Below, piece after piece: positions 9,001 to 33,000 of a stretch of DNA of 64,000 bases; position 1 is the stretch's first letter, and each line of letters opens with the position of its first letter. Source of the DNA: Giardia intestinalis (lineage: Eukaryota); NCBI GenBank assembly GCA_000002435.2, contig CM018792.1. The stretch is one strand, 5' to 3'. Below the pieces are notes generated by a model, which saw nothing but the letters and a program-made list of their open reading frames with translations, had not been told where the DNA came from and did not search any database. The position numbers were made by a program, and so were the translations under genes.

Positions 9001-12000
9001 GTAATCGCTATAAAGCTATATGTACTGCCACCCCACATCGACTTGAAATTAGAATCAGATACTGTTTTTTCTGGCTTAGCAGCAAACTGGTCATCTGGAA
9101 CGGAAAAGGCCTCAACAGAAGCCTCTCCACGTGCCGCAGCCCCCATGTCTGACACATTAGCGTATGTCTCACAATAGTTTGGTCCTCTACTGAGAGTTGA
9201 CGAACCAGTGGAGGACCCAGTGGAATGTGCTACCTTAGGGTTCAACGATTCAGCATGCCTCTTCGCAAACAGTGCTGAGAAGGTAGGATAGGTTTCAGCA
9301 TTCGTAAAGAAATATGTTTGGCTCACATAAAGGTCCTGGAGGGACATGATTGCATTGTCGCAGAACAAATGCATCCACTTGCTCAAGCGAAAACCGTCCT
9401 TTCTATAAAAAACATGCTGCTCGAAAAATTCGGACTCCAAAGTTAGAGAAAATGTAGGTATATAGCTCAGAAGAGACGCGTATAGTCGGTAGTAGGACAA
9501 GCTATTGAAGAGCAGCCCTCCGTTGATGTATTCCATGCGGTATAATAACATAAATGCACTAAAAACAGTGCTAATAACACTATAGTGCAGGATGTCTGCA
9601 ATATGGCGGCTGTTTGATGTCAGGAGCAGGCGTGAAATGAACGACTGTGTGAATTGGGCCGATGTTTGGTTTAGCATTGTGCTGTATGCAGTTTCAAATG
9701 ACACCGATCTGTGGTTTAGATTGTGGGCACCGGGGTTGGACTGCAAGGATTCACCGCGGAGGTCTGCGAAAGAATGGGCAAGAGAAATGGGTTCGCTGAA
9801 GTAAGAAAAGTGGGACCCTAAGGCATCGTTAATGTTGAACTCTAAGGGCTTGGTAGAAGCTTCTCTCAAATCCTTCTGTTGCTTGAAGCTTATTGGGTTC
9901 TTTGCGTCGGTGTAAGATCGAATAGATAGCTCATGATACAGATTCATGGTGTCTGTAGAAAGCTCCTCCTCAGTTGACAGGGTAGGGCGATGAGAGTCAT
10001 TCCCAGTCTGCACGTCTAGAATGCCATAGTACCGGAAGAAAAGGTGTATTAGCGCCTTGATAATGCGCCAGTGGCGTAGCGTAAGAGTAAGATGTGCACC
10101 AATCTCAGTGGAGATGAACATAACAAAGTTGAACACGAGGAAATTGAAGTAGCTTATGTAGAGGCCGAGCTTCGTCCGTGTCAAGAAAGAGCTGGTGTAG
10201 ATGTGATAATCAGCGTCAAAATTGGCGTAGATATACTGCATTAGTTTATCATACGATGAGATGCTTGCCAGGGTAGGTGCTTGGATTGAAATCAAGTGAC
10301 TTATATTCAATTGTGAAAGATTGCCAAAACTCATAAAATAAAAGCCTATGTCGGAGAGGTGCAAGTTTCTGCTAAGCGAAAACTTTCTGATGCTAAGCTG
10401 GAGGATTCTTGCATCACGAGCTCGAGCTACAATGATAACATGAACGGGAGCCTTGAATGTATAAGTTTTGTTATTCTCGGAGTAAATGGTCTGCCTTGCA
10501 GCCAACATGCCAAGAATGTTTTGGTAAAGTAGGAGATCAGAGTGCTGATCCAAGACAATAGCCAGTGCATAGCGATTTGGAAAGGCAGATAATAGGTCAG
10601 CATAGAAGTGTATATCTGCAGATGAATAGGCAAGCAGAAATGTCAACGCCGAGGCCCTGGAGAGGATTGCATGGACATACTCAAAGAATTGCTGTGCCAT
10701 GCTCGTGGTTAGAATAGCAAACGGTTCCTTGGCTGCCAAAAGGTCCATCATCACTGTAGCCATATACGCCCCAAACTCAGAGAGGATGCCTGCTGATCGC
10801 TGAAGGCCGTGTAGAGACTCTAGGTACTTGGGGGAAGAAGAACGCCTTATCATATAAGCCATGGAATCCGATGTGACACGAGAGCCCGAATGTTCAAACG
10901 TGGTTGCATTAGCTGGTGACAGGCCAAACACAGAAATAAGGCACGAGATGAGTATGCTGAGTTTGTGTTGCAGATTAATAGCTGCATGCGGAGCCTCTGA
11001 TTTGACTTCTTCATGAGTTGCGCCATCACTCTGGAGGAGATCTGAGTTTATGTCATCGACTAAGCAAAACGACTCCTCGGTGGCTAAGTACATGCATGAG
11101 ACCAGGTACACAAACGTTTGGGTGCACGCTGCAGTCCTGTTTGCATCCGGTGCCAGTCTATGCTGAATAAGCATAAAATCGAGCCCCAATAGCTTTGGAA
11201 AATCGTTAGACAAGTTGCTAAGAAACACATGAAGATGATAAAACGAGTCCTGATAGAGTCCTGGCAGCGATCTGAAGAGTCGTTGAAATGGAGAAATTGT
11301 GCAGCAACTATCTCCCAAGTTTTTGTCGGCTCTAACGACTATTTGGTGCTTTAGCGACTCTACGTGTTCCATGTATACTTCTAAAACAATACTCTTGTAG
11401 GCAGAAAAGTTCTTGGTGAAGGTTGTTTGATCAACAAGAGATGCCGATGCACAGACTAACTGAGTTGTTCTGAATTCATGTGTAGATTGCAAGGTAGAAA
11501 TATAAGGAATAAAGGGAAGATACATCATGTATGCCTTTCGAAACTTTTGAGTTACTCGCTCTGCATGGGGATGTACTTGATAGATATAGTGCTCATCAAC
11601 GATATGTGGGCCTGAAGACGATCTCTGGCTGTGAGAACTAGGGCTGGATGTCATAGTCGTGGTCACGCTGCACTCCTGGGGCATTGCCCCAGCTAGCCAA
11701 ATAATCAGTCTGCAAAACGAATGGTCTATGTCACTATCGATGGGAATCCAGCCCTGAGACGAATATGATCTACTGCTGCGGCTGTAGGGATTAAATTCCA
11801 GCCTTGTTTCGGAAGAGATCGAATAACTAGAAAAATCCTCAAACCCGTACGATAGAGTTGTTGTTGCAAATGTGGTTGAGAGCATTTCCAGATGCTCCTT
11901 TGTCAAGGTATCAACTCCGTACAAAATCACTAGGTATCTCGAGATGAGTAGCTCGCGAAGACGGTTATACTGTGGTAAAAAGCTAGCATCTGTTATTGGA

Positions 12001-15000
12001 ATAAAAAGAACGTGAGAAGATAGATATCTAGCTACTAGATGCGCTAAGTAATAAACCTCTAGGGCAAAGTATCCCCTAGCCCAGTCGGTGAGAAGAAGTG
12101 CGACAGATTTGCTACGCAGAGCAGATATTAATCGTGCTGCTTTCAGCCTCATGGTGTGCGATATGTACATGGAGTCGTATTCATTGGCAGGATTAAAGTA
12201 TGACGAAGATATACTAATAAGCTGCCCCGACAACACAATGTTAACTAAGGTCTCGCTGAGTGGCGCTGTCGGCATTCTGAAGTCGGTTATGTTTGTGTCG
12301 CAATTCAAAGCTATGGAGGAGACGGGTGTAGCGTATGCCATTTTATCATCTAAATTTGCAGTGGAAACGGTGGCTTGATTGAGTTTAGACAAGGACTCAG
12401 GGGTCCTAAAAAGCTCCATAGTAAGTGCAGCGAAGTCATCGAAAGCCACATTATCATTCCCCTTTGTGTCTCGAGGCTCCGTTCCCTCAGGTGCATCGCT
12501 GTTGGATGTTAGCAGGCTGACGGACTCAGTGCGTGCTTGTAGCCGCGCCTTTGCGTTTTTGATCAGGGTCTTCTCCTCTGCTGTGTATGTGAGATCCAGC
12601 ATAGGTAAATCTACGCGGCGATTAGCTCCATTTCCAAGCAAGGTATCGGAAGCAAGGCTATAGACTAGAGCAGATGTTTGCCGATTGGTTGCAATGGAAA
12701 GACTGACTCCATGTTCCAAACCACTGAGCACAAGGCCGCGATTCCGCCCATAAAGCAAAAGGATATCCCAACAGAGTCGAGCATCGAATTGATCTGTTAG
12801 GGATGGAATCCTTTCTGGTGGCAAGATATTGCGCGCAATGACGTGCTGGACAACAGTAAGGGCCATGATATCCAGTGTTTCTTTGTGCTCGAGAAGCCGT
12901 GCATAGAGAGCCTTCAGCATAAGAATCCTGGAGCTTGTTGCCGAAAACGTAGACCCCACCTGAAACGACCCCTGTGCCCTCAACTTCCCTGTGCCCCTAA
13001 TTAAGTCATATGTCTCTTCCTCAAGAATCCGTATCATTGAGCATATTACATTCTCGTAGCAATAGATGAACGATTCGGAGCGGCCATCACAATATAAGTA
13101 GACGATACAGGAGAGCGCATAGACAATGGCTTGATATGTGCAAAACAGAAGAGCCTCGCGGTAGCGCTCGTTGAGGAAAAGTAGTGCTGCCTTGCGATAG
13201 TTATGAACTATATGCTGAGAGTGAAGGGAGCCCTCTGTGAAGAGGTAGCAATCCTTGACGCGTGCATTCGCCTTGATAATTGTTTGGTAAAAGATGTTTT
13301 CATGGCCCTTGAATATACCGAAGAAGTTACCAGTGGAATCTATGAGATTAGAGAGAAGACTATATGACAGCTGTGGGCCGTGTTTTACGTCAGTCATGTC
13401 GCGAGGAGGCTCGTCTTCAAAGCCATCTTCCACGCTGGATTCGTCCGTGTCCACAATCAATGGAGAAAAAACAGAGTTGAATAAGGCATCAGTCAGGACG
13501 CCAGTGAGTGGAACTGTAGTTAGTTGAGAATAGAGGACCGCAAACGAAAGCGGAAGACGTGCGTAGGGTGCACAGATTCTGTACTGCTGATTGGCATAAA
13601 TAGTTGTCACCACTGGATGTGAAGAGAGGTTGCGTCTGCAGCGTGAGAGTAGTTCCTCTGCGGCCAGCACATTTGTCATAAATGACTGGACCTTTGCAAG
13701 AATATCGCGAGCAAAAAGATTCATAAATTGGAAACAGTTTGGATTGGGACTCTCATCTGTATAGAATTTCGGAACAGAAAGCCGAGTCCCGCAGCGTCTT
13801 CTGTCCAGAAGATTAAGGTTGTCCAGAAATGAGATGAACGGAAGGGTGTAAACAGATTCGTGTTCATGAACGTTTTGCTGTCCCATACTATTGAGCTTCC
13901 ACACAACTTCATGCTTTGATTTTGCAAAAATACAGATATGCTTCAAACAGCTTAATATCTCAATCGTCACTTTCTTAACATCATTTGGAGAAAGCTTGAG
14001 TAGCGTGAGGTCGGCTATCCCATCATAGATTGCGTTTGTCAGGGCAATAAGCTCTGGGAGAAGCTTTCTAACATTGCCAATAGCTATGACGAAATTTCTG
14101 CAGAAGATCAGTTTGTCCTCTATTATGCGAGCCATCTTTGCAACCTTAGGTATAACTCCTTTGTCAGCCAAAATAGCTGTCACAATGAAGATACCTTCTC
14201 GCAGAGCCTTCAATAGATAGGGGTGTGTGTTAAAGAATGGTAGTGTAATGCGTGCGGGTCCATCATAGCTACGCCTCTTCCTGATAAGGGGTGCCCTGGT
14301 TCGTTGGTTGCCCAGCAAGACCTTGGATTGGACGTGCCTTTGATCCCTGGAGATTAATATTGATTTAGCGCGTGCCTGCTTAGTAGTATCGTTCGTTTCC
14401 TTAATGGGAGTTTGTGAGCTAAGTGTTGAGTTGCCCGGTTGATGCGACAATGAAGCATCATCATCTCTGGATGCAATCGATGGTTGAGGTGCAATAATGG
14501 TGAGAGCCTTGATGCGAGGTTTTAGCAACGGAAGCGTTGTCTTTCTGTTGGTGCACCCAGCTATCCTTCCGAACGGTGTCTCAAACAGATCAAAGGCGTC
14601 CTCATCTGAAGAATCGGTGCAATGCCGGTGCTGGTCTTTGAATGCCTCCGCCAAATCGCTCTTGGTCTCACTTCCTGGTGCAGTGGCGTCTTCAATCACT
14701 TCTGTGACACCAACAGTCCTTCTAGGTAAAAGAATGCCACTTTTCTGAACTACGGGGACAAGAGAATTAGAGTCAGAGATTTCTGTTTTAATAGCCTCTG
14801 CTGCATCGGCATTGTGCTCACCAAAAGTGAAGTCAAGATCTCCAAGCACACGTGCAATCTCGTCATTTAGATGCAGATTGATCGTGTAATATGTTATAAA
14901 AATATCTATATTATGCAGCCAGTAGTATATTTCTAGCAATCTATTTTCTGCAGAATAATTTAGGAGATATTGCTTATTAATCTGGCTTGCCAGCTGATGA

Positions 15001-21965: not shown

Positions 21966-22103
21966 TAGGAAAACTTTACGCCCTGAGTGACTGAAATATA
22001 TGCTCAAACAGGATAGGGACAGGACACGAGCTGACTAGTCCAGGACGCGATGCAAAGGTCTTAAAAAAATCTCCGCTTCAGGTAGCTCGACTTGTGTACG
22101 TCC
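21966..22103. promoter_or_regulatory. 138 bp divergent intergenic region shared by the giant gene (-) and the 234 aa gene (+)
   Basis: This is the only sequence between two divergently oriented ATGs (21965 on the minus strand, 22104 on the plus strand). It contains an A-run (aaaaaaatct, about 22063-22072). Giardia-type promoters are short and lie immediately upstream of the ATG. Confidence 0.4.
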
Positions 22104-22808
22104 ATGGCGATACGCGAACTGGAGCTGTTTCTAAATCACTCTTTGACAGACGAGATTCGATCGCAGCTCATAACCAAGGTCACAGAGATGCTCACCATGC
22201 CCGAGCTCGTCCACTTCCGTTGCTCACTACAGTCAGACTATGGTATTGCTGCACCTATAGGTCTCTACGACATTCTTCGGAGGATTCCCCTGTTTGCTGA
22301 CCATGCCTTTATGACCATCGGAGAGGTCTTTAGTGGCCTTTTTGCTGTAGCAGACTCCTTTCATGAGGTCATTACAGAGATTCAACCGTCTCTCGAGCAA
22401 TACGAAGGCCATATTTTGTGGCTCCTAACAGACACTTATAGTAGCCTCATGCACCAATCCCGTAGCTTCAAAGATTTGGGGATTCCCGTGAAGCGGATTA
22501 AGATGATTCTCAAAACAGCTTATAAGTTTACCCCAGCGCTTCCCAAGACCATTCATGACTTGGATGCCGATACAATGTCCCAGGTTCCGTCCCATGATGA
22601 GCTTAACAAACTACGCGAATACGTTGACCAGCTCCCTAACGCACAAGCCCGAGCGTTAGTGTTTGGTAAACTCTTAAGAGAGATAGGGAGGCGCCCCGAG
22701 GAAATAATCCTCAATGGGAACCAATTAAATCTAGAACTCACTGACCTGCCCTCCTTCGCATTCTGGGTCCTACTGGATGCTGCACAAGCGTATGCAACTC
22801 CATCATAG
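22104..22808 (+). CDS. Hypothetical protein, 234 aa (MAIRELELFLNHSL...), with a possible C-terminal NET/ET-like helical domain
   Basis: The track ORF 22092..22808 starts at a TTG. The first ATG is at 22104. This is the longest ORF in the interval and no competing ORF of similar size overlaps it. The C-terminus SHDELNKLREYVDQLPNAQARALVFGKLLREIG...QLNLELTDLP loosely follows the BET extra-terminal pattern (LP...hydrophobic helix...EIEID-like strand). That match is tentative. Confidence 0.6.
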   Translation: MAIRELELFLNHSLTDEIRSQLITKVTEMLTMPELVHFRCSLQSDYGIAAPIGLYDILRRIPLFADHAFMTIGEVFSGLFAVADSFHEVITEIQPSLEQYEGHILWLLTDTYSSLMHQSRSFKDLGIPVKRIKMILKTAYKFTPALPKTIHDLDADTMSQVPSHDELNKLREYVDQLPNAQARALVFGKLLREIGRRPEEIILNGNQLNLELTDLPSFAFWVLLDAAQAYATPS

Positions 22809-22841
22809 CAATCGTGGCCGACCTTGTGTTTGGTGAAGGTA

Positions 22842-23009
22842 TTAGGTGGACTTAAGCTCGCTAGCTAAATGGTCACTGAATTCTCTGAGCAAAAGGGCAC
22901 GAGGTTCTGTAAATGCCGTTTTCTCTAGCTGGCTTTCAAATAAAGTTATCTCATCTATAGCCTCCTGGTGAGAAAGGCTGCGCGGGTCCTCTGAGAAGGT
23001 TATTTCCAT
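22842..23009 (-). CDS. Candidate small ORF, 55 aa (MEITFSEDPRSLSHQEAIDEITLFESQLEKTAFTEPRALLLREFSDHLASELKST)
   Basis: It falls below the 60 aa cutoff of the track. The ATG at 23009..23007 is directly preceded by ctatttttaaa, a Giardia-type AT-rich initiator context. The stop is at 22842..22844. No homology was recognised. Confidence 0.3.
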   Translation of the reverse strand: MEITFSEDPRSLSHQEAIDEITLFESQLEKTAFTEPRALLLREFSDHLASELKST

Positions 23010-23269
23010 TTTAAAAATAGATCTATTCTATCTCCTTACTTATCAATGCGTATTTGCACAGATAAAGTGTACGTATGTACGTGATTAATATCTGAATGTC
23101 CAGAGTAGATAATTACTTAACCTCGAATGTACGTTTTCACCTCATCATGAACGTGGTGCGTGGAAGAACGACACTAATACCCTTCATGACTCAGACTATT
23201 TACTAGAGGGTTCTATGCCGTTTCAGATGAGACAGCATCATTCGCTGAGCCAGGTGCTTGGATCTGTAC

Positions 23270-23484
23270 GTTTACTCTCTCCGTTTCACCGAGGTGGGGT
23301 TGCCATCTGCCACCTGAGCAATCCCCTCCATGCGAGCCACCGCCACTCTGGGTAGGCGGGTCCCTCCCGCCCTTGCACCAGCTGAGATCCAGAGTCCAGA
23401 GTCTAGAAACCAAAATCTGAGAATATGAGCTCAGATGTCAAGCGATTCCGGTGGGAGAAGAAGAAGTTTTCCACTTTCCCTCTC
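23270..23484. repeat. 3'-terminal inverted repeat of the left retroelement copy (inverted, diverged copy of the element 5' end)
   Basis: On the plus strand, 23270-23484 (gtttactctctccgtttcaccgaggtggggttgcc...ccatgcgagccaccgcc...gctgagatccagagtccagag...cagatgtcaagcg...) aligns in the same orientation with 29856-30051 (gtttactttccggttcaccggggtagggttgtc...tcatgcgagccaccgcc...cctgagatccacgtccagag...cagatgtcaacca...). By eye, roughly three quarters of positions match. Confidence 0.7.
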
Positions 23485-24790
23485 GGGAGTCTCTGTCGCT
23501 CTTCGCGGTGCCTTCCGAGGCTCTCCCATCTTCTGGCCTTTCGGGTCAGCTGTCGTCTGATATCTAGTGAGCACCCGTTGTCTCGGGCTTTTCCGTCAGC
23601 CACAGCAGTCTGGCCTCAGAAGCAGCTGACCCTGGCCATGTACTCCAGAGTCGCCTTGGTGCTGGTACTCTATCACGAAGATCGCATACGCCACGAACCT
23701 CAGGTGTCGATCCCTAGGTCCCTGAGGTGCTCCCTCGTCTTCTCGTGGAGGGTGCCGTCAGTCCCGAGTATGATCGGGAGGGTGCTCCCCGTATGCCTCT
23801 ATCTTAGAGTGGTAGTACGAGCTCATGGACGCCGGCTGGACCACTCCTATGTCGACGGCCTGGCTGGTGTCTGGAAAGAAGAGGTCCGGCTCTGGTTCTC
23901 CTTGTCATGGTCAACCCATACCTTCTGCTCGTGGATCACAGTGCACCTCTTCTTCGACATTATGTGATCAGTCATCCAACACGAGATCATGTCGACGCTC
24001 ACCCTATGCAGTGCGTCTGGCTCAGTGACGATGTGGTCTGCATCTCCTTGCATCGCACAGCACACTTGGAGGTGATGCTTTGGTCTGCCGAGACAGTCGG
24101 TCCAAGCCCGCATCTTTTCGAGAGGCGGCGGAAGGCGTCGTCCGGAAGCATCAGGAACGATCCGAAGACATGATTGATGTACGAGCCTGTGCTCACCGTT
24201 AGGTCGTCTCGCTCAGCAACCGGTTCGCGATGCTCCGTCGTCACGTCGAAGGTGTTAAATGCATCGCGCAGTTGCTTGTGATAGACGCCCGGCAGGTGGA
24301 CTCCCAGGCCGCCACTCTTCTTCGGTGCCGCCAGGAACGATCCACCTCTTCGGGTCAGAGCCGAGTATCCCTCCAAGGGCCTCTCCGACCTGCCTGTCGA
24401 AGGATTCATATTGTTCAACTGGTGAGTCCATCTCGACGAGCGGTGCGTAGCCGGCCATCGGAATGGCGTTGATCCTGGCCAGCGTCAGCTTGGCGTGGTG
24501 GGTGATCGGCGCGTCCATCACCAGCTTCAAGCTCTCTGCTGCCTTCTCTATCGCCCTGGGGGCTATGGACTGCTTCTCCTTCGAGACCGGGGCCCCCGGG
24601 AAGGAGACCTCCTGTCCTCTTTGGGTGCTCTTGCACTTGTCAATGTTGACTGTCAAACCATATCGTTTCGCCAGGGCTGTCGCCTCTGTGATTATCCCCG
24701 TCGCGTCGCTGTCGTTGGCATGGAAGCTGAGTGCGTCGTCAGTGTAGGCAATGAGTAGGGTATCTCTCCTTCGGCTCCTGGTGAGCAGGT

Positions 24791-25279
24791 TCTGTCCCCC
24801 GCAGCACAGAAGCATGCTCAGGGCCCTGAGGGACCGAGTCCAGGGGTGCAGCGTGGCGCAATTAGAGGAAGGCCTCGATGTAGTTCTCAGGATGAAGGGT
24901 ACACTCGCCTGGCCGAGGCCGTCTGCTGTTGGGGCTCTCGTTATGTCGAGCGAGGCCGCTGTGTTCCGTCAATCTGCATCTCCATGTATGCCATGCGGAC
25001 ACCACCCATGTGCGTTCAGGTGGAGTGCATCTGCTCGGTCTCTAGAAAGGCCAGTGTCTGGGTCTCCAGGGGGCTCAGCAGTATCTGTGAAACACAGCCA
25101 TGATCGTCCACTGATTGTGCTTGTCCTGTCTCATCATTGGGAAGAGGGTAGAACAAGAGTTCTTCCGCTCTCCAGACCTGGTTGACATCTGATCTTCGGG
25201 CTCTGGACGTGGATCTCAGGCGATGTATGGACAGGAGGTACCCGCTTGCCTAAGGCGGTGGCTCGCATGAGGGGATCAT
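24791..25279. repeat. Left arm of an apparently perfect 489 bp inverted repeat (partner 29912..30400)
   Basis: Position p on the left pairs with 55191-p on the right. Blocks 24841-24900, 25081-25160 and 25161-25279 were checked base by base against the reverse complement of the right arm and are identical. The track ORFs 24846..25103(+) and 30088..30345(-) have identical 85 aa translations. ORFs 24751..25185(+) and 30006..30434(-) are identical apart from their first residues. Confidence 0.9.
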
Positions 25280-25465
25280 TCCAGGAAGATGGAACCGTTA
25301 CATTATATCTACTGCTGTTCAGCTGTGATATTACATTAGAACTTGATTCTATTAATTTCGATAAAGTAACATTAGACACCGAGAAGGAAGCAATGTACAC
25401 AAAAACTGACACACATCCACAAACAGCACGAAAGCGTAGTGAAATGGTCGCTATTCACTCTAGGA

Positions 25466-26497
25466 TCATTTCGAGAGGATATCTACTATCTCTTTGTGAC
25501 CCTTCTTCTTAGCGATGTCAAGGGCAGTAGTACGGGGCGGGTAACCACAGTAGTCATAGACTGTCATCAGCTGCCTCTCCCCTAAGAGTAACTCAACACA
25601 CTCTATGTGGTCACCCCACACCGCATTCATAAGAGCTGTCCATCCTTTATCATTCTTCATGCCACTTTCTCTTCCTAACAGAAGCCTGACACACTCTGGA
25701 TGGCCATTACGTGCTGCCCACATGAGAGCAGTTTGACCGGTATTATTCTCCATGCCACTCTCTTTTTTGAGCAGCTCTACAACCCCTCTGTGCCCTTGCG
25801 CTGCCGCATACATAAGCGCTGTCCATCCACCAGCATCCTGGCCCCTCCTCATGTGAAGGTTGTTTCTGACTGCACCGATATCACCACGGTAAGCGGCGTA
25901 TATGAGTCCTGTCCACCCTGAGACACTGCTCTCATACCCCACCAGAAGCTCAACGCACCTAGGATAGTCTACCAGGGGGTCATTGGAACGGCCACTCCGT
26001 GCCGCGAATACGAGAGCGGTCCAACCGCCTACTTTCGCACCTCCTTCGTAACCCGCTAGCAGTTCTACTATTTCTGCGTATCCATGTGCCGCAGCCATCA
26101 TCAGCGCGGTTCCCCCCTTGTACATGGTCATCTCATCTATCTTGAAGCCTCCGGACGCCTTCTGTCCTTCCTGAAGGGGAGCAAGCGCCTTCACAGTACC
26201 TACATCATTTCTGTCAACAGCTCTCATGAGGGCAGTAAATCCGTTTTTGTCGGTGGGGTCGAGGAGCTCAACGATGTTCTTGTGTCCTGCCCTCGCAGCT
26301 ATGATCAGCGCTGTATCCCCCTCGCTGTTCTTCTTGTCTTTGTCTGAGAGATGCTTCTCGGCTGCCTCGAAGTCTCCGTCCGCAGCAGCGTGCATGAGAG
26401 GCGTCCAGGACAAATCCCTTGTGAACTGAGGTCCTGCATCGACATCCCCTTGACCAGAACTGCCTACTCGCGACCCTCCGCGTTCGTTGCGTGCCAT
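25466..26497 (-). CDS. Ankyrin-repeat protein (Giardia Protein 21.1 type), 343 aa
   Basis: It contains a run of ankyrin repeats with the Giardia-typical G(W/F/D)TALMxAAxxGHxxxVxLL pattern (TALIIAARAGHKNIVELL, FTALMRAV, TALMMAAAHGYAEIVELL, WTALVFAARSG, WTALMYAAAQGHRGVVELL, QTALMWAARNGHPECVRLL, WTALMNAV). The ATG is at 26497. Confidence 0.9.
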   Translation of the reverse strand: MARNERGGSRVGSSGQGDVDAGPQFTRDLSWTPLMHAAADGDFEAAEKHLSDKDKKNSEGDTALIIAARAGHKNIVELLDPTDKNGFTALMRAVDRNDVGTVKALAPLQEGQKASGGFKIDEMTMYKGGTALMMAAAHGYAEIVELLAGYEGGAKVGGWTALVFAARSGRSNDPLVDYPRCVELLVGYESSVSGWTGLIYAAYRGDIGAVRNNLHMRRGQDAGGWTALMYAAAQGHRGVVELLKKESGMENNTGQTALMWAARNGHPECVRLLLGRESGMKNDKGWTALMNAVWGDHIECVELLLGERQLMTVYDYCGYPPRTTALDIAKKKGHKEIVDILSK

Positions 26498-27469
26498 TCC
26501 TTATTTTTCTTGCCGAAGAAAGGGGCTAAAACACCTGTAATTCACACTGTAATCTACAGCTCAGTCAAATGATGTCCATACATGTATTCCTATATAACTT
26601 TGGCCCTTGCTGATTCTTTCTGTTGCATATAACTGTATGTAGTGTTATGCGTCCATGCCCGGCCTCTGCTCCTTCGTGCTGCGGCTAGCTGGGATCTTGT
26701 GAAGTACTAGGCTAGAGCCATTAACAGCGTGGAACACTGGTGGGCTTTCATCTCACCCGCAAAGTGCAGTGCGCTATGCTCTGTCTGTGAGCACTCATGC
26801 TTGACTACCCGAATGGGCTGCGTGATGTAGACTACTCTGAGACTGTAACCAAGGATTCGTGCTCAGTGCTAATTCATCTGCCGCTGTCGTTGGACCTCGT
26901 GGCAGCCATGATCTCAGATGCCTTGTGCTTACATCTGTAAGTCTTCTATGGTTGAAGAAAGTGTCTGTACGAACAGCGGGGGGCTCTCCCATGGGTTGCA
27001 GCTATGCCCATTGCAGGACCTTCAGGTCTCCTTGGACGTAGCCTGCCCAAGCTCAGTGGACTGCTGTGCAGAGAGTGTAGTCGCTCTTCGCCTGTTACGC
27101 TTTCTCCTGAAGAAGGCACGTTGCGGGAGCACTTCAAGCCCTACACTAGTGGAAAGCGCCATCGGCAGAACGCAGTCCACTGAATTCTCACGAAAGAAGC
27201 CGCTTCCACAGGATGCCCGTGGAGAGCGGCGCAGACGGCCCCCGCTCTATCTACACATGCAAGCTGGCCCCTTCGGCACACACGTTCTGCACCTTGTACG
27301 AGGCAGAGGGGTCCTGATGGGATAAAGTACCGACGCGTGTTACGGTGTGAGTGGGACGAATGACGAAGAACCAAAAAACGGTCTTACACATGCTAACAGC
27401 GTTGAACAGTGTACACTGTGGTCTCTATAGACCCACAAAGCCATCACAAAAAACGAGGAAACGACCCTG

Positions 27470-27904
27470 ATGAGCCAGGACGAGGGCAAAGCGGCAGAAG
27501 AATCCTTTGGCCGCTGGTTTTCTGCTGCACAGCGCGGAGATTGCGCCTATCTAAAACAGCATATAGCGACCATGCGGCGAGCCGTGGACTCCCGAGGAAT
27601 GACTGCGCTGATGCATGCAGCGGATGCAGGTCACGCATCGTATGTCCAAGCACTGGTTAGTGAAGCGTGCGAAATCAGCTCTGAGGGGTTCAAGGCTCTT
27701 AGGTACGCAATCCGCGCGTCCTCGATTGATGCTGCAGGAGTCTTGCTTCCGTATGAGGGCTCTGTTGAGACCTCTTCCGGTCTTTCTCCACTCCTTATGT
27801 TATTGAAGCGCAAGCAGGACACCATTGCACATATGTGCTTTGAGCATATGGATTCGTCTAAAGATCTGGCTCAAGGGAAGGATGGGGAGTTAGAAAGATA
27901 TTAA
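27470..27904 (+). CDS. Short ankyrin-repeat ORF, 144 aa; possibly the 5' part of the next ORF
   Basis: The ATG is at 27470. Ankyrin motifs are present (GMTALMHAADAGHASYVQALV). The stop TAA at 27902..27904 overlaps the ATG of the following ankyrin ORF (TAATG). Confidence 0.6.
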   Translation: MSQDEGKAAEESFGRWFSAAQRGDCAYLKQHIATMRRAVDSRGMTALMHAADAGHASYVQALVSEACEISSEGFKALRYAIRASSIDAAGVLLPYEGSVETSSGLSPLLMLLKRKQDTIAHMCFEHMDSSKDLAQGKDGELERY

Positions 27905-29148
27905 TGTTTGCTACTGAGCTGAACGACTACGGGCTCCTGCAGGATGCCATCCGTCGCTGTCATAAGCTGCCTGCGGGCGATATAGCTGAAGTACTTTCTC
28001 TCGAAACAGCTACCGGCCCAACCTTTTGCATAACGTACCTCATGGGTGTGCTTGACGGATTCGCACACCGGGATGACTCAAGGCGCCAACACGCTTCTCC
28101 CACACTGATCACAACGACTCCAGATGTTGTAAAGGGTGGCCCCAAAGTAGATGAGAACGGCAACACTCTCTTGATGAGGGCAGTCATGACCTTCAACTAT
28201 AAGAAGATGCCCGACTATTCTTCTATCCTGTGCAGAAGCGTGAACAGGGAGGGGAAGACTGCGCTCATGATCGCGGCAGAAATAGGCAATGAGTCCGCTG
28301 CGGCAATACTCAGGAAATACGAGGCGAAGATCCAAGATCCTGCTGGAATGACGGCCCTGATGTTCGCCGTGAACAAGGGAAATTTAAAGCTCGTCCAGAC
28401 GCTGTTAAAGTATGAGGTTGGTCTGAAGGACGTTGCAGGCCGGACGGCGCTGATGCATGCAGTACTATCAAACAAGCAGCCTATTATTCAGGAACTTATC
28501 AAGTGTGAGACTAGCAACCAAGACTTTCAGGGCAAAACAGCCCTTATCTATGCCGTAGAGCAGAACCTTTATCAAGCCTGCAAGGCGCCCATTCCTTATG
28601 AAGCGGGCTTGGTGGACCATAGGGGTCTGCGTGCAATAGATTATGCCAAGCTCTTCGACAATATGGAGCTGATAGATCTTTTAGAGGACTCAGAAGGAAT
28701 TTCACGAAACTCTCTTCAGCAGATCCTGCTTCGTCACGGGTGGCTAGCGCCACGCATATCCAGGCCCAGCCCCAGTCGTAGTAGCCCTAAGCCGGCTCTC
28801 TCTGGTTCCACTGTGAGCAAGCCCACTACTTCAACACAAGATAAGCAGCACACTACTGTAGATGTGAATAAAGAAGGCTCACTGCCTGAAGACGCGAAGG
28901 TATTTTCCACCGATCTTATCTCTGCTGTCCACGCCAGTAGGTACTATGACATCGGTGTTCTAGCCCCACATCTTGCCAACATGAGAGATCACCACAACCT
29001 CACGGCACTCCACTACGCTATCTACCAGAATAAACGAGTGGCAGTACGCATCTTGCTTCCTCACGAATACGAATCCCTTAATGGGTTTACTATTCCACCA
29101 GAGACGCGACCAGAGATAGTTGAGATGATAAACCTCTATAGGAAGTGA
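27904..29148 (+). CDS. Ankyrin-repeat protein (Protein 21.1 type), 414 aa
   Basis: Repeats are present (NTLLMRAV, KTALMIAAEIGNESAAAIL, MTALMFAVNKGNLKLVQTLL, RTALMHAVLSNKQPIIQELI, KTALIYAVEQN, LTALHYAIYQNKRVAVRILL). A Ser/Pro-rich linker (RPSPSRSSPKPALSGSTVSKPTTST) separates the repeat blocks. Confidence 0.85.
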   Translation: MFATELNDYGLLQDAIRRCHKLPAGDIAEVLSLETATGPTFCITYLMGVLDGFAHRDDSRRQHASPTLITTTPDVVKGGPKVDENGNTLLMRAVMTFNYKKMPDYSSILCRSVNREGKTALMIAAEIGNESAAAILRKYEAKIQDPAGMTALMFAVNKGNLKLVQTLLKYEVGLKDVAGRTALMHAVLSNKQPIIQELIKCETSNQDFQGKTALIYAVEQNLYQACKAPIPYEAGLVDHRGLRAIDYAKLFDNMELIDLLEDSEGISRNSLQQILLRHGWLAPRISRPSPSRSSPKPALSGSTVSKPTTSTQDKQHTTVDVNKEGSLPEDAKVFSTDLISAVHASRYYDIGVLAPHLANMRDHHNLTALHYAIYQNKRVAVRILLPHEYESLNGFTIPPETRPEIVEMINLYRK

Positions 29149-29208
29149 AGCTCTCATATAAGTACCCATTCAATCTGTATAGGCAGGCCTGTGAGGTATC
29201 TATGGAAC

Positions 29209-29855
29209 TCATTTCTTTTTACCGCCACGTGAGTTGTTCTTGAAGAAGATTATGTCCCCATCTTCAACAACGTAGTTCTTCCCTTCGGTGCGGACCTTCC
29301 CGGCTGCCTTGGCCTCTGCTTCGGACCCTAACCTCTTGAGATCCTTATAAGTGTAAACCTCTGCACATATAAAATAGTCGCGGAAGTCGCTGTGGATAAC
29401 CGCGCCTGCGTCCGGTGCCTTGGTGTATTTTCTGACCGTCCAGCATCTAACTTCGTCTGCACCACATGTGAAGAAATGACAGAGGTTCAATGCCTTATAT
29501 CCCGTCTTGATGATCTTATCGAGAGCCAACTCCACAACGGAACCGTCAGGGAGCTTGTATTTTGAGGGGAGCTCTCTGAGGTAAGCATTTCTAGCCTCTG
29601 CAGAGCCTAGCTCCAAAAGTGTCGCCTCTAGCTTGGCGCTGTACGGCACTATATGCGCAGTCTCGTTTTTGGCCGTTATCCGTTCCTGTATCTTAGTAAG
29701 GAACTTATTCTTCTTCTTACTATAATCTGCCTCACTCATGTTCAAAAGGTAGACCACAGGCTTGCAACTAAGCAACTGCAGCTCGTTGAGAATCTCCACC
29801 TCACGGGACGACCAGCCCTGGGCAAAGAGGTCCTTCTTTTCCTTGAGTAGTCCCT
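29209..29855 (-). pseudogene. 5'-truncated OLA1/YchF (Obg-like ATPase) fragment: C-terminal ~215 codons only, no G domain
   Basis: The translation ...SCKPVVYLLNMSEADYSKKKNKFLTKIQE...LNLCHFFTCGADEVRCWTVRKYTKAPDAGAVIHSDFRDYFICAEVYTYKDL...[32 protein letters not shown] follows human OLA1 as I remember it (...[29 protein letters not shown]...[41 protein letters not shown]...[25 protein letters not shown]...KKK). The N-terminal P-loop G domain (about 170 aa) is absent. Homology stops at the retroelement terminus at 29856. The first in-frame ATG is only at 29739. Confidence 0.75.
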
Positions 29856-30051
29856 CTATTTTTAGGTTTACTTTCCGGTTCACCGGGGTAGGGTTGTCAC
29901 CTGCTGCTTGGATGATCCCCTCATGCGAGCCACCGCCTTAGGCAAGCGGGTACCTCCTGTCCATACATCGCCTGAGATCCACGTCCAGAGCCCGAAGATC
30001 AGATGTCAACCAGGTCTGGAGAGCGGAAGAACTCTTGTTCTACCCTCTTCC
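29856..30051. repeat. 5'-terminal repeat of the right retroelement copy (inverted relative to the element 3' end)
   Basis: See 23270..23484. The outermost 7 nt, GTTTACT, are the exact reverse complement of the AGTAAAC at the 3' terminus of the left copy. Confidence 0.7.
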
Positions 30052-30400
30052 CAATGATGAGACAGGACAAGCACAATCAGTGGACGATCATGGCTGTGTT
30101 TCACAGATACTGCTGAGCCCCCTGGAGACCCAGACACTGGCCTTTCTAGAGACCGAGCAGATGCACTCCACCTGAACGCACATGGGTGGTGTCCGCATGG
30201 CATACATGGAGATGCAGATTGACGGAACACAGCGGCCTCGCTCGACATAACGAGAGCCCCAACAGCAGACGGCCTCGGCCAGGCGAGTGTACCCTTCATC
30301 CTGAGAACTACATCGAGGCCTTCCTCTAATTGCGCCACGCTGCACCCCTGGACTCGGTCCCTCAGGGCCCTGAGCATGCTTCTGTGCTGCGGGGGACAGA
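29912..30400. repeat. Right arm of the 489 bp inverted repeat (partner 24791..25279)
   Basis: See the left arm. There are mismatches immediately outside both ends: 24790 T against the complement of 30401 (C), and 25280 T against the complement of 29911 (C). Confidence 0.9.
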
Positions 30401-31127
30401 GCCTGCTCACCAGGAACTGAAGGAGATACTCCACTCAGTGTCTATATTGACGACAGTGACGCGATGGGGACAGTCACAGAGGCGACAGGCCTGGCGAAGC
30501 AACATGGCTTGACGGTCAGCACTGGGTGTAGGAGCACTGAGGGGCAGGAGGCCTCCTTCCTGGCCGGTCTCAAGGATCCCCCAAGACAACCGAAGGCCGA
30601 AGCCAGTGATGGCACCAATCACTCGCCAAGCTGGCCGGGATGGACCCACACGTGACCCATGTGAATCCCTCGACAGGCAAGTCGGGATCCTTGGGGTGCT
30701 TGGCTGGCAGAGGCGGACTGATCCTGCCTGCACCGAAGAGTGGTGGCGGCTCGCATGAGAAATCACTCAGATAACAGATGAGAGTAAATCAGGGGACTTT
30801 GTTGAAAAAGAAACGGCGACTCGAACTTCACCCACCACGAAGGAAGACCAAGGATAGGCGCCACCGGTAGACCAGAGAGTCTACAAGAAGGCCTGAATTC
30901 AAGGTAGATCGATGTGTACACCCAGACAGAGCATATCCTCATGGAGCAGCCGAGGAGCGCCCAGATTCTGAATGTGTCACTAAAGAGGACTCTCTCGTCA
31001 TGTTATTCGCAACCAACCCTCATCTTTGGATGACCAGGACTTAAATGAAAGCTTACCCGTGAGATCCTTGAATGCACTTGCGGGCAGGCCCCAGCAACAC
31101 ATCTACATGAGCTACATACGGTGACGC

Positions 31128-31142
31128 GTTTACTACCTAAGT
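31128..31142 (-). promoter_or_regulatory. VSP-type extended polyadenylation signal ACTTAGGTAGTAAAC
   Basis: On the minus strand, 4 nt after the TAG stop, the sequence reads ACTTAGGTAGTAAAC. This matches the conserved VSP 3' motif ACTYAGRTAGTRAAY, which contains the Giardia AGTPuAAPy signal. Confidence 0.8.
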
Positions 31143-31146
31143 ACAT

Positions 31147-33000
31147 CTACGCCTTGCCCCTGCAGATGAACCACCAGCAGAGGAATCCGACGAGGCCTCC
31201 TACAACAACAATCACAGCGACGGAGATCCCCGCGATGGCCCCCGTGGAAAGGCCACTCCTGTTGGTGCTGTCTCCTCCAGTATCTCCGCCGGTGCCATCG
31301 TCAGCCTTTTGTTGCGTTACGTAACAGGTGACAGGGCCATTGCCACCAGCTGGCGGGGCACAGCTTATGCAGTTTTCTACACCAGTTATTGCATTAGAGC
31401 TAGCCTTATCACTATCCGTGCATTTGAAGCATTTATCACCGGCACCTTTGTAATACCCTGCTAAGCAATCTGTGCAGGTTTCCTTACTACCCGCACACTT
31501 CACACATCCTTCAGTACACGCCGGACATTTTCCTCCAGCTGGGCTTTGTCCATTGGCACACGTTTGGCATTGTCCCTTATTCTGTGCAGCCGTACACACA
31601 GAGCTACCAGGAAGCTTCTGTGTGTTGTAGCATCCGCCCGATAACAGAGCGTAGTTTGCCCCACACTCAGTGCATTTCCCGCCACTTGCCTTACATCCGG
31701 AGGCATCTCTCGCTGTTGCAGGTATGGATGTGCAGACGCCGTCGACTGGGGCGTACCCCTCCTCGCACTGATCGCAGTACTTCGAGCCTCCGACGTTCAG
31801 TGAGCAGCCGTCGGCCTTGCAGTGGGCCATAAAGTCTCCCGTGCACTCCTTTATACAGGTACCCTTAGCATTCGTCTCATCACGCTTCAACACGTATCCC
31901 GGATAGCAGGCCGTGCACGACGTTTCTGCGTTAGTACTACAGCTTGCGCACGATTCGTGGCACAGATTACAAACGTTAGCGTCAGTGCGAGTTCCCGCGG
32001 GACAGGCATCTAAGCACGCGTCTCCCAAGGGGCTCAGCTTCTTTTCTGATCCGCAAGCTTCGCAGACGTTGTCCTTACTGCACTTTTCGCAATGCTCCAT
32101 GGGACACACAAAGCAGCCTGTTCCGGCTTCATTGGGTTTTTTAGTACCCTCGCAGGTAAGACACTTAACGGAATCTCCAGTCTTTGAGCACGTCTTGCAG
32201 TCGGCCACACCGCCCTCACTGACACTACCGCAGAGATGGCACTTTTTGTCCTCTGCTATTGGGAAGTGTGTGTTACCACATCCGTTTTCGTCAACACACG
32301 TGCCTGTCCCGTCGCTATTGGCCCCTTCTTTGAAGTATTGCTTACCAGTATCCTTGCAGGAGGTGCATTTATCCTCACCGTTGCCGGTGCACGTTCTACA
32401 ATCTGCATGGCACTGCTGACAGCTTGTAGTGCCATAGTATCCGTCCACACAGCTTTTACATGTGGCCGTCTGTTCTGCACTGCTTTGTCCGGGAGTTTTC
32501 GGGGCGTCGCACGTCGCACAGTTCTGAACCCCCTTATTATGATCCACACCGGCCGTGTTGTTGCATGCAATACAGGACTCCTTCGTTTTATCAGCGTCAG
32601 ATGCAGGATTCTTGAAGTACCCGTCGTGGCAAGCTATGCATATTCCATCCTTATCAGCCGTGGCAGTTCTATCGTTGCACACAAGGAGCCCGATATCGCT
32701 TCCCATCTCGTAGCACCCTCCCCTGTGCAGGAAGAAGCCGGCTTTACAAGATGTACATGTGCCATCATTCTTTGTTGTACATGCTCCTTCAGCATCCTCG
32801 CCTGTAGTTATGCACTTTCCATTGACAAGATGCTCTGCTGCTGTCGAGCACTGGGAGCAGAAGTTTGAGCCCCCAATCCAGACGTCGCACTTTCCTGTTG
32901 CGCACTGTCCTGTTTGCGGGTCACTGCTAGCCTCTGTGCATGTCGTTGCTGCCCATACCACTTGCAGGATGGCGATTCCGAAGATGATTTTCTCGAACAT
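31147..33000 (-). CDS. Variant-specific surface protein (VSP), 617 aa, complete
   Basis: The C-terminus is ...[33 protein letters not shown], the invariant VSP TM domain plus CRGKA tail. The ectodomain is Cys-rich with many CXXC motifs and GGCY motifs (HRGGCYEMG, LLSGGCYNTQ). The signal peptide is MFEKIIFGIAILQVVWA. The track start at 33021 is a GTG. The first ATG is at 33000. Confidence 0.95.
   Translation of the reverse strand: MFEKIIFGIAILQVVWAATTCTEASSDPQTGQCATGKCDVWIGGSNFCSQCSTAAEHLVNGKCITTGEDAEGACTTKNDGTCTSCKAGFFLHRGGCYEMGSDIGLLVCNDRTATADKDGICIACHDGYFKNPASDADKTKESCIACNNTAGVDHNKGVQNCATCDAPKTPGQSSAEQTATCKSCVDGYYGTTSCQQCHADCRTCTGNGEDKCTSCKDTGKQYFKEGANSDGTGTCVDENGCGNTHFPIAEDKKCHLCGSVSEGGVADCKTCSKTGDSVKCLTCEGTKKPNEAGTGCFVCPMEHCEKCSKDNVCEACGSEKKLSPLGDACLDACPAGTRTDANVCNLCHESCASCSTNAETSCTACYPGYVLKRDETNAKGTCIKECTGDFMAHCKADGCSLNVGGSKYCDQCEEGYAPVDGVCTSIPATARDASGCKASGGKCTECGANYALLSGGCYNTQKLPGSSVCTAAQNKGQCQTCANGQSPAGGKCPACTEGCVKCAGSKETCTDCLAGYYKGAGDKCFKCTDSDKASSNAITGVENCISCAPPAGGNGPVTCYVTQQKADDGTGGDTGGDSTNRSGLSTGAIAGISVAVIVVVGGLVGFLCWWFICRGKA

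What the first reader, a model, noticed from the sequence alone, without database searches (positions are those of the whole stretch)
24791..30400. Apparently perfect 489 bp inverted repeat bracketing a 4.6 kb gene cassette, with identity falling abruptly to about 80% outside it
Region 24791-25279 is the exact reverse complement of 29912-30400 (pairing rule p + q = 55191). This was verified base by base over about 260 bp and through identical translations of antisense ORFs elsewhere. The two arms are the 5' parts of two head-to-head retroelement relics. Immediately outside the arms, on the RT side, the same two copies are still homologous but match at only about four in five positions. Compare acctgctcaccaggagccgaaggagagataccctactcattgcctacactgacgac with gcctgctcaccaggaactgaaggagatactccactcagtgtctatattgacgac. 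Old, diverged copies carrying a sharply bounded identical tract are the signature of recent gene conversion or inverted segmental duplication. Such arms can also flip the 4,632 bp spacer (two or three ankyrin genes plus the OLA1 fragment) by homologous recombination. The alternative is an assembly artefact.
Basis: seen in the sequence. Interest (0 to 1): 0.65.

Follow-up and report, generated by a model that had tools for sequence, protein, structure and literature searches.

The report
Gene-converted inverted repeat of dead retroelements
Two head-to-head relics of a dead Giardia retrotransposon form a real, perfect 489-bp inverted repeat around a 4.6-kb block of duplicated gene fragments; comparison with other isolates shows an old repeat kept identical by gene conversion, and its middle lies the other way round in a related isolate. 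This is an ordinary, well-understood kind of genome instability.

Summary
In detail: 24791-25279 is the exact reverse complement of 29912-30400 (489/489). Outside it, identity falls to about 75-80% with indels.

The window is Giardia intestinalis WB-C6, on the 2.76-Mb chromosome. The arms are the RT-encoding 5' parts of two inverted, degenerate non-LTR retroelement relics. They bracket an ankyrin gene, a frameshifted ankyrin pseudogene and the 3' half of a YchF/OLA1 gene.

The same inverted-repeat-plus-cassette unit, with identical inner junctions, exists in isolates P15 (assemblage E) and DH (AII), so the repeat is old. P15's 2-kb arms are only 89% identical but carry their own perfect patches of 208, 197 and 111 bp. 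The WB arms are identical to each other yet 84-95% identical to either P15 arm. Relative to its DH orthologue, the WB left copy carries a roughly 160-bp foreign patch that matches the WB right copy. This is patchy gene conversion.

A DH contig joins the orthologous left flank (98.7% identical) to the opposite end of the spacer, so the spacer is inverted between WB and DH.

An assembly artefact and a recent duplication are both unlikely. The cluster was already listed in 2010 as a WB-specific insertion. Modest interest.

The parts
22104..22808 (+). GL50803_15120, a conserved hypothetical gene that serves as the left unique anchor of the locus
   Evidence: exact match to KAE8303498.1 / XP_001708402.1, with orthologues in P15, DH and GS.
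22813..23270 (.). Unique flank F between gene 15120 and the left relic
   Evidence: 98.7% identical to DH contig L008 1-460. Positions 22811-23032 are 83% identical to the P15 syntenic site in L011.
23267..25284 (-). Left retroelement relic U_L: 2.0 kb, degenerate, non-LTR RT/endonuclease type, probably GilD/Genie 2
   Evidence: colinear with both P15 arms. All three frames are broken. There is tblastn homology to the P15 RT ORFs.
23271..23401 (.). Outer terminal inverted repeat of U_L, beginning TTTACTCTCTCCGTTTCACC
   Evidence: 75-78% identical to 29863-29990 (direct) and to 25276-25201 (inverted). The same termini occur in the P15 copies.
24255..24815 (-). 186-aa RT relic ORF carrying the YTDD motif; annotated in 2007 as 'Reverse transcriptase/endonuclease, putative' (XP_001708398.1, probably GL50803_10122)
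   Evidence: Pfam RVT_1 scores E=1.5e-5 (25.2 bits, below the gathering cutoff of 29.6).
24740..24900 (.). WB-specific converted patch in the left relic. It is identical to the right copy over 24791-24900 and about 27-28% diverged from the orthologous DH copy
24791..25279 (.). Left perfect arm
   Evidence: It encodes degenerate RT residues corresponding to about aa 297-393 of the P15 422-aa RT ORF.
25280..29911 (.). 4632-bp spacer (the cassette). It is inverted relative to flank F in DH contig L008
25466..26497 (-). Ankyrin-repeat gene, 343 aa (KAE8303500.1 / XP_001708396.1; 'Protein 21.1', probably GL50803_102813)
27470..29148 (+). Frameshifted ankyrin pseudogene (ORFs of 144 and 414 aa; GL50803_115200). 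It is a 92-96% identical paralogue of the intact 562-aa gene KAE8305285.1 on the 4.02-Mb chromosome
29209..29867 (-). 3' fragment of a YchF/OLA1 GTPase gene (residues 185-406 of 406). The P-loop half is missing
   Evidence: Homology to the intact locus stops at 29867, which is the terminus of the right relic.
29867..30751 (+). Right retroelement relic U_R, with a complete inner terminal repeat at 29867-29990. Its outer part (30401-30751) is truncated, riddled with deletions and of a divergent lineage
   Evidence: The outer part is 84% identical to a relic next to gene 12074 in DH, and 62-82% identical per 100-column window to the other copies.
29912..30400 (.). Right perfect arm
31147..33000 (-). 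VSP AS8 (KAE8303502.1), the right-hand neighbour. Its 3' end faces the right relic

Best explanation
The arms are the RT-encoding 5' portions of two inverted copies of a dead non-LTR retrotransposon, most probably the GilD/Genie 2 family. They flank a partial segmental duplicate of the ankyrin-OLA1 locus found on another chromosome, in a variable region of Giardia WB chromosome 4 next to a VSP gene.

The inverted-repeat structure is old and predates the split of assemblages A and E. The two copies recombine with each other. Short, non-reciprocal gene-conversion patches repeatedly overwrite one arm with the other, which gives the perfect 489-bp tract. Its outer 110-160 bp was copied from the right copy into the left copy in the WB lineage. 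Its inner roughly 360 bp was already homogenised before WB and DH diverged.

Reciprocal exchange inside the identical tract flips the 4.6-kb spacer, so WB and DH carry opposite orientations.

Shown: the identity pattern, the shared architecture, the patch, and the opposite linkage in DH. Inferred: the molecular route (double-strand-break repair with or without crossover), the donor direction, and the neutrality of the inversion. The breakpoints lie in relics and no gene or promoter is cut.
For: 1. Identity: 489/489, then about 75% with indels.

2. Old shared architecture: P15 contig L003 has the same unit, with 2.0-kb arms at 5345-7354 and 11999-14014 and the same inner junctions. The terminal repeat is truncated next to the ankyrin gene and complete next to the OLA1 fragment.

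3. Concerted evolution: WB_L/WB_R identity is 1.00, against 0.84-0.95 for either WB arm versus either P15 arm. The P15 arms are 0.889 identical overall, with perfect runs of 208, 197 and 111 bp at positions different from the WB tract.

4. The patch: WB_L versus the orthologous DH copy shows 3.3% difference over the inner arm, 27-28% over about 24740-24900 and 6.4% over the outer part, against 1.3% in the unique flank. Over 24791-24900 the patch equals WB_R.

5. Inversion: DH contig L008 runs flank F (98.7% identical to the WB flank), then the outer part of U orthologous to WB_L, then the arm, then the OLA1 end of the spacer.

6. Assembly: PacBio read N50 12.7 kb at 200x, with no misassemblies seen. 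The 2007 accession order XP_001708393 (VSP), 8394 (ank414), 8396 (ank343), 8398 (RT), 8402 (15120) equals the window order.

7. Gene conversion is documented in Giardia AI (PMC12669663).
Against: The inversion rests on a single 454-era DH contig. DH has two diverged copies of the cassette (97.3% identical), and their arms share a 236-bp identical stretch, so a chimeric join cannot be excluded.

The direction of conversion could not be polarised with P15. Of 37 patch sites, 17 agree with WB and 16 with DH.

Which orientation is ancestral is also unresolved. At informative sites the WB_L outer part matches P15_L at 64 and P15_R at 106, a mosaic result.

A conversion tract reaching the very edge of homology on the inner side is unusual for simple repair by synthesis-dependent strand annealing (SDSA).

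Read-level support for perfect identity in WB was not checked. Quiver or Illumina correction could have erased a very few real differences.
Confidence: 0.78

Rival explanations
1. A single reciprocal crossover (the inversion itself) at about 24790/30401 created the sharp boundary. On this reading the left copy is a hybrid of one relic's outer part and the other relic's inner part, and the inner parts were already identical. No separate WB-specific conversion event is needed.
For: The spacer orientation differs between WB and DH. The boundary lies where the WB_L outer part becomes orthologous to the DH copy attached to the same flank. Crossovers need identical sequence, and the DH arms already share a perfect 236-bp run.
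Against: The model still requires earlier homogenisation of cols 85-590, including the 24791-24900 segment, which is 27% different from both DH arms. Gene conversion is therefore needed anyway. The diverged patch in WB_L extends about 50 bp beyond the end of identity, which fits a conversion tract plus later decay better than a clean crossover point.
Confidence: 0.12
2. Assembly or polishing artefact: the two arms are really one sequence, or are slightly different, and were duplicated or homogenised by the assembler.
For: Perfect identity over 489 bp that ends where unique mapping becomes possible is what over-polishing could produce. No reads were examined here.
Against: The inverted-repeat architecture is present in independent assemblies of P15 (two contigs) and DH. 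The WB reads have N50 12.7 kb at 200x, which spans the whole 5.6-kb structure, and BridgeMapper found no misassembly. The 2007 Sanger assembly has the same gene order. All four junction types are seen in other isolates.
Confidence: 0.04
3. A recent inverted segmental duplication of about 520 bp created the second arm de novo.
For: The identity is perfect, and the inner edge coincides with the end of homology.
Against: The new arm would have had to land in register with an older homologous relic. Both arms and both inner junctions exist in P15 and DH, so the duplication predates the A/E split, and it could not still be perfect without conversion.
Confidence: 0.03
4. The outer part of the right relic (from about 30291 or 30401 outward) comes from a different relic copy, brought in by ectopic recombination or rearrangement with another locus. 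On this reading the boundary marks a junction between relic subfamilies, not merely the end of a conversion tract between two old partners.
For: The WB_R outer part is an outlier (62-82% identical per 100-column window) to WB_L, P15_L and P15_R, which are 83-95% identical to one another. Its best match (84%) is a relic next to gene 12074 in DH, about 215 kb away on the same chromosome. The unit sits at different loci in WB and P15, and relic remnants are present at both loci.
Against: 84% identity is far below WB-DH orthology (about 99%), so that copy is not the donor. The same pattern arises if WB_R simply preserves the unconverted sequence of the original partner while P15's partner was overwritten.
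Confidence: 0.25

Closest known systems
GilD (Arkhipova & Morrison 2001), also called Genie 2 (Burke et al. 2002): the dead non-LTR retrotransposon family of Giardia
   Same: The copies are degenerate RT/endonuclease relics riddled with frameshifts and deletions. They lie in a variable region next to a VSP gene, and PMC2861651 states that GilD lies next to VSP genes and is disrupted by deletions. They have terminal inverted repeats of about 125-135 bp. I recall from the abstract of Burke et al. that all Genie 2 copies have inverted repeats of up to 172 bp, but I could not verify this here. The left ORF was annotated as 'Reverse transcriptase/endonuclease, putative'.
   Different: No GilD/Genie 2 reference sequence was available, so family assignment is by elimination and by description. 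A pair of copies forming a large inverted repeat around captured host gene fragments is not something I could find described.
Concerted evolution and flip-flop inversion of large inverted repeats (for example chloroplast inverted repeats, the yeast 2-micron FRT arms, human Y-chromosome palindromes, and inversions mediated by transposable-element pairs)
   Same: Arms within one genome are more alike than orthologous arms between genomes. Conversion tracts are sharply bounded. The spacer is found in both orientations among relatives, with breakpoints inside the arms.
   Different: No dedicated recombinase and no selected function is evident. The tracts are short and patchy (100-500 bp) within 2-kb arms that are otherwise 75-89% identical. 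The arms are transposon relics, so homogenisation looks like a by-product of general homologous repair.
Synteny-break modules catalogued in the P15 genome paper (Jerlström-Hultqvist et al. 2010, PMC3091692)
   Same: Additional file 9 lists this very cluster as 'Insertion of gene cluster in WB' (GL50803_40591, 115200, 102813, 10122, 10125). It lists the P15 unit as 'Insertion of a gene segment in P15' (GLP15_1987-1989). [quoted passage not shown]
   Different: In the passages I read, that paper does not link the two entries as one unit at two loci. It does not describe the inverted repeat, the conversion tracts or the inversion relative to DH.

Membership tests
GilD / Genie 2 dead non-LTR retrotransposon | Encodes a reverse transcriptase of the non-LTR type | tested here: met
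   Pfam RVT_1 scores E=1.5e-5 on the 186-aa ORF, although 25.2 bits is below the gathering cutoff of 29.6. tblastn to the P15 422-aa RVT_1 ORF and the 182-aa thumb ORF gives 45-69% identity. The 2007 annotation is 'Reverse transcriptase/endonuclease'.
GilD / Genie 2 dead non-LTR retrotransposon | All copies are degenerate, with frameshifts, stops and internal deletions | tested here: met
   All three frames of WB_L, P15_L and P15_R are broken. WB_R has 133 gap columns relative to WB_L over about 450 columns.
GilD / Genie 2 dead non-LTR retrotransposon | Interstitial location in gene-poor or variable regions next to VSP genes (as stated in PMC2861651) | tested here: met
   VSP AS8 lies about 400 bp beyond the right relic, followed by a high-cysteine protein gene.
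GilD / Genie 2 dead non-LTR retrotransposon | Copies carry inverted repeats of up to 172 bp (recalled from the abstract of Burke et al. 2002; not verified) | tested here: met
   Terminal inverted repeats of about 125-135 bp at 75-80% identity occur on WB_L, P15_L and P15_R. A related, more intact P15 element has 82-bp inverted repeats at 97.6%. The defining statement itself rests on my memory.
GilD / Genie 2 dead non-LTR retrotransposon | Nucleotide similarity to the published GilD / Genie 2 consensus | not testable with these tools
   No reference sequence was reachable. The PNAS paper is not held, and the protein search returned only unnamed relics.
Gene conversion / concerted evolution between repeat arms | Paralogous arms within a genome are more similar than orthologous arms between genomes | tested here: met
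   The WB arms are 100% identical to each other, against 84-95% to the P15 arms and 96.7% or 72% (by segment) to the DH arms.
Gene conversion / concerted evolution between repeat arms | Sharply bounded identical tracts are embedded in diverged but colinear homology, at different positions in different lineages | tested here: met
   The perfect runs are 489 bp in WB; 208, 197 and 111 bp in P15; and 236 bp in DH.
Gene conversion / concerted evolution between repeat arms | Donor and recipient can be identified | tested here: inconclusive
   The patch at 24740-24900 in WB_L matches WB_R and not the DH orthologue. However, P15 does not polarise which state is derived: 17 sites agree with WB and 16 with DH.
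Inverted-repeat-mediated inversion (flip-flop) | The spacer is found in the opposite orientation relative to a unique flank in a related genome, with breakpoints inside the arms | tested here: met
   DH contig L008. The evidence is a single contig.
Inverted-repeat-mediated inversion (flip-flop) | Both orientations coexist within one strain or population | not testable with these tools
   This needs long reads or PCR.
Composite / mobile unit bounded by inverted element copies | The same unit, with the same termini, is found at different loci | tested here: met
   In WB the unit lies between gene 15120 and the VSP. In P15 it lies between the 12074 orthologue and an EF2-like gene, and a further partial copy sits on another contig.
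Composite / mobile unit bounded by inverted element copies | Clean empty sites and target-site duplications | tested here: not met
   The P15 'empty' site retains a 300-bp relic remnant. The DH site next to gene 12074 holds another diverged relic. No clean empty site was found, and no target-site duplication could be assessed.

The most novel reading that the evidence does not exclude
The whole 8.6-kb unit is a relocatable module. It consists of an inverted pair of relics with defined TTTACTCT... termini, enclosing ankyrin genes and an OLA1 fragment. It sits between gene 15120 and a VSP in WB and DH, but about 215 kb away on the same chromosome in P15, and P15 holds at least three OLA1-fragment copies. 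If a supposedly dead retrotransposon family, or its more intact P15 relatives, still moves or copies host gene fragments as composite units, it would be an active driver of Giardia synteny breaks rather than passive debris.
Probability: 0.1. Interest if true: 0.6.

Novelty: new member of a known kind. Interest (0 to 1): 0.3.

Why it matters
This is a clean natural example of mitotic-type homologous recombination, both gene conversion and inversion, acting on dispersed repeats in Giardia. Whether Giardia has sex or recombines at all has long been debated. The WB lineage (sub-assemblage AI) is now argued to be asexual, with gene conversion as its only form of exchange (PMC12669663).

The locus offers a simple PCR or long-read assay for inversion and conversion rates. 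It also links two separately catalogued WB/P15 'insertions' as one unit that lies at different loci. Practically, it warns that short-read data cannot determine the orientation of this 4.6-kb block. Beyond that, it is an ordinary structural polymorphism with no evident effect on any intact gene.

Tried and rejected
1. Rfam scan of 22000-32000 at E<=0.1: no hit, so the conserved terminal repeat is not a known RNA.

2. Two exact-pattern scans of JGI metagenome contigs with arm and terminal-repeat motifs: no hits.

3. Fetching the WB chromosome itself or the intact WB ankyrin-OLA1 locus: WB proteins are 'not on record' in the contig index.

4. Polarising the ancestral orientation from P15 arm similarity: mosaic and inconclusive, 64 versus 106 informative sites.

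5. Polarising the 24740-24900 patch with P15: 17 versus 16 sites, inconclusive.

6. Naming the family through protein search: only unnamed relics and the old 'RT/endonuclease' annotation were returned. The GilD paper is not held, and a text search for 'Genie 2' found nothing.

7. The apparent absence of genes in window 1-22000 looked odd. It is one giant minus-strand ORF that runs off the window, so the ORF listing does not list it.

8. A switch controlling VSP expression was considered and rejected. The VSP's 3' end faces the repeat, and no promoter or intact gene is cut by the inversion breakpoints.

9. Purifying selection on the arms was considered and rejected. It cannot make paralogues identical while orthologues differ by 3-27%.

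Full report
OBSERVATION. Window 24791-25279 is the exact reverse complement of 29912-30400, matching at 489 of 489 positions. The repeat finder extends the pair to 24765-25284 / 29907-30426 (520 nt, 99%) with 4622 nt between the arms. It is the only repeat of 80 nt or more in the 64-kb window. On the inner side, homology ends at 25284 / 29907. On the outer side it continues to about 24308 / 30750, but at only about 75% identity and with many deletions in the right copy: 242 of 321 aligned positions match and there are 133 gap columns. A perfect 489-bp run has probability about 4e-48 at 80% background identity and about 1e-5 at 97.7%.

SOURCE AND GENE CONTENT. Exact protein matches place the window on the 2,761,001-bp chromosome of Giardia intestinalis WB clone C6. 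Reading left to right, the locus contains the following.
- GL50803_15120 at 22104-22808.
- A 460-bp unique flank, here called F.
- A 2.0-kb degenerate retroelement relic on the minus strand (23267-25284). It includes the 186-aa ORF once annotated 'Reverse transcriptase/endonuclease, putative' (XP_001708398.1).
- A 343-aa ankyrin gene at 25466-26497 on the minus strand.
- An ankyrin gene split by a frameshift into ORFs of 144 and 414 aa (27470-29148, GL50803_115200).
- The C-terminal 222 residues (185-406) of a YchF/OLA1 GTPase, lacking the P-loop half (29209-29867, minus strand).
- A second relic on the plus strand (29867-30751).
- VSP AS8 at 31147-33000 on the minus strand.

The frameshifted ankyrin gene is 92-96% identical to an intact 562-aa paralogue on the 4.02-Mb chromosome. 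In other Giardia lineages that ankyrin gene lies next to an intact 406-aa YchF gene. The spacer is therefore a partial segmental duplicate of that locus.

WHAT THE ARMS ARE. A more intact relative sits on P15 contig ACVC01000119. It is a 4.2-kb element with ORFs of 369, 422 (RVT_1) and 182 aa and 82-bp terminal inverted repeats. By tblastn, the arms encode degenerate residues corresponding to about aa 297-393 of its RT. Window 24713-24185 is 65-69% identical to its 182-aa ORF.

Each 2-kb relic has a defined terminus, TTTACTCT(C)TCCGTTTCACC..., and terminal inverted repeats of about 125-135 bp. The right copy's inner repeat is complete and abuts the point where OLA1 homology ends (29867). The left copy's inner repeat is truncated by about 45 bp.

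The relics are dead and deletion-ridden and lie next to a VSP gene, which matches what PMC2861651 says of GilD. My recollection that Genie 2 copies all have inverted repeats of up to 172 bp fits as well. I could not obtain a reference sequence, so the family name is an inference.

THE REPEAT IS OLD. P15 (assemblage E) contig ACVC01000118 carries the same unit: 2.0-kb inverted arms (L003 5345-7354 and 11999-14014), the same spacer and the same two inner junctions. DH (assemblage AII) has the cassette on two contigs. A recent inverted duplication cannot explain a structure shared across assemblages.

GENE CONVERSION. In a four-way and then a six-way alignment, the WB arms are identical to each other but 84-95% identical to either P15 arm. 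The P15 arms are 88.9% identical overall, yet contain perfect runs of 208, 197 and 111 bp at positions different from the WB tract. The two DH arms are 97.7% identical, with a perfect 236-bp run.

The DH copy attached to the same unique flank is the orthologue of the WB left copy (the flank is 98.7% identical). Against it, the WB left copy differs as follows:
- 3.3% over the inner arm;
- 27-28% over about 24740-24900;
- 6.4% over the outer part.

Over 24791-24900 this divergent patch is identical to the WB right copy. It is continuous with the right copy's divergent outer part. Paralogues that are more alike than orthologues, lineage-specific perfect patches and a mapped foreign patch together are the standard signature of repeated short-tract gene conversion. 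Only the outer 110-160 bp of the identical tract is demonstrably WB-specific. The inner roughly 360 bp was already near-identical before WB and DH split. Non-reciprocal conversion is independently reported as the mode of exchange in Giardia sub-assemblage AI (PMC12669663).

INVERSION. DH contig AHGT01000142 (L008) reads in this order: flank F; the outer 1.5 kb of the relic orthologous to the WB left copy; the arm; a complete inner terminal repeat; then the OLA1 fragment, the ankyrin-525 gene and the ankyrin-347 gene. In WB the same flank and outer relic lead into the ankyrin-343 end. Relative to the unique flank, the 4.6-kb spacer is therefore inverted between WB and DH, with the switch inside the arm. 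This is what reciprocal recombination between inverted repeats predicts.

The caveat is that this is one 454-era contig. DH holds two 97.3%-identical versions of the cassette, so a chimeric join through the 236-bp identical stretch cannot be excluded. I could not decide which orientation is ancestral.

ASSEMBLY ARTEFACT. This is unlikely. The WB assembly used PacBio reads with N50 12.7 kb at 200x and reported no misassemblies. The accession order of the 2007 Sanger annotation (VSP 8393, ank414 8394, ank343 8396, RT 8398, 15120 8402) equals the window order. The architecture recurs in P15 and DH. I did not see reads, so I cannot rule out that polishing removed one or two real differences.

WIDER CONTEXT. 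The flanks of the unit differ completely between WB and P15. At the P15 site syntenic with the WB locus, there is only a 300-bp remnant of the relic's 3' end between the 15120 orthologue and the VSP. Conversely, the P15 unit lies next to the 12074 orthologue. In DH that site holds a different, diverged relic, which is the best match (84%) to the odd outer part of the WB right copy.

Additional file 9 of the P15 genome paper already lists 'Insertion of gene cluster in WB' (GL50803_40591, 115200, 102813, 10122, 10125; CH991814 194996-205690). It also lists 'Insertion of a gene segment in P15' (GLP15_1987-1989, opposite CH991814 419986). The text notes that GTP-binding-protein and RT genes cluster at P15 synteny breaks. 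P15 has at least three OLA1 fragments.

The unit thus belongs to a small dispersed family of relic-plus-gene-fragment modules. Because relic remnants sit at both loci in both lineages, I favour ectopic recombination or differential loss over true transposition. This is unresolved.

VERDICT. Mechanistically it is an ordinary case of homologous recombination between transposon relics in a known hypervariable Giardia region. The gene cluster was already catalogued as a WB/P15 structural difference. It is a new member of a known kind, of modest interest.

Noticed in passing
window 3-22034, minus strand: One stop-free reading frame of 7344 codons that runs off the left end of the window. This is why ORF listing shows no ORF of 200 aa or more in the first 22 kb. 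The P15 syntenic contig has a 7850-aa gene in the same place (L011 1-9863).
   Followed up: partly
window 27470-29148: The ankyrin gene is split by a frameshift at 27904 into ORFs of 144 and 414 aa. The same split is present in two independent short-read assemblies (SRR2642193, SRR445166; 99.7-99.8% identical to the window), so it is a real pseudogene and not a sequencing error. DH and other isolates have intact versions of 525-559 aa.
   Followed up: partly
L020 (P15 contig ACVC01000119) 12713-16891: A 4.2-kb, much more intact retroelement: ORFs of 369 aa with zinc-finger-like motifs, 422 aa (RVT_1) and 182 aa, bounded by 82-bp inverted repeats at 97.6% identity. It is inserted into a second P15 copy of the ankyrin/OLA1 cassette and is about 67% identical at the nucleotide level to the WB relic. 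It may be a recently active relative of the 'dead' family.
   Followed up: partly
L008 and L009 (DH contigs AHGT01000142 and AHGT01000167): DH carries two versions of the whole cassette that differ by 2.7%, far above the DH allelic heterozygosity I recall. They may be two paralogous loci or two deeply diverged haplotypes, and only one of them could be tied to a unique flank.
   Followed up: partly
L014-L019 (Logan contigs from WB-like runs), ends of contigs: Six independent short-read contigs that carry GL50803_12074 all stop exactly 122 bp after its stop codon. This indicates that a repeat begins there in AI genomes. In DH that position is followed by a diverged relic copy.
   Followed up: partly
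window 23267-25284 versus L008 461-2447: Even the orthologous outer part of the left relic is mosaic between WB and DH. Identity in 100-bp windows ranges from 84% to 100%, against 98.7% in the adjacent unique flank. This suggests further conversion patches from other relic copies.
   Followed up: no
window 57973-63927: A 1984-aa ORF on the plus strand in a stretch of 57-62% G+C, overlapped by several antisense ORFs of 200-250 aa. I did not examine it.
   Followed up: no
window 30752-31121: About 370 bp between the truncated end of the right relic and the VSP 3' flank has no match in any fetched locus (P15, DH or others). Its origin is unknown.
   Followed up: partly
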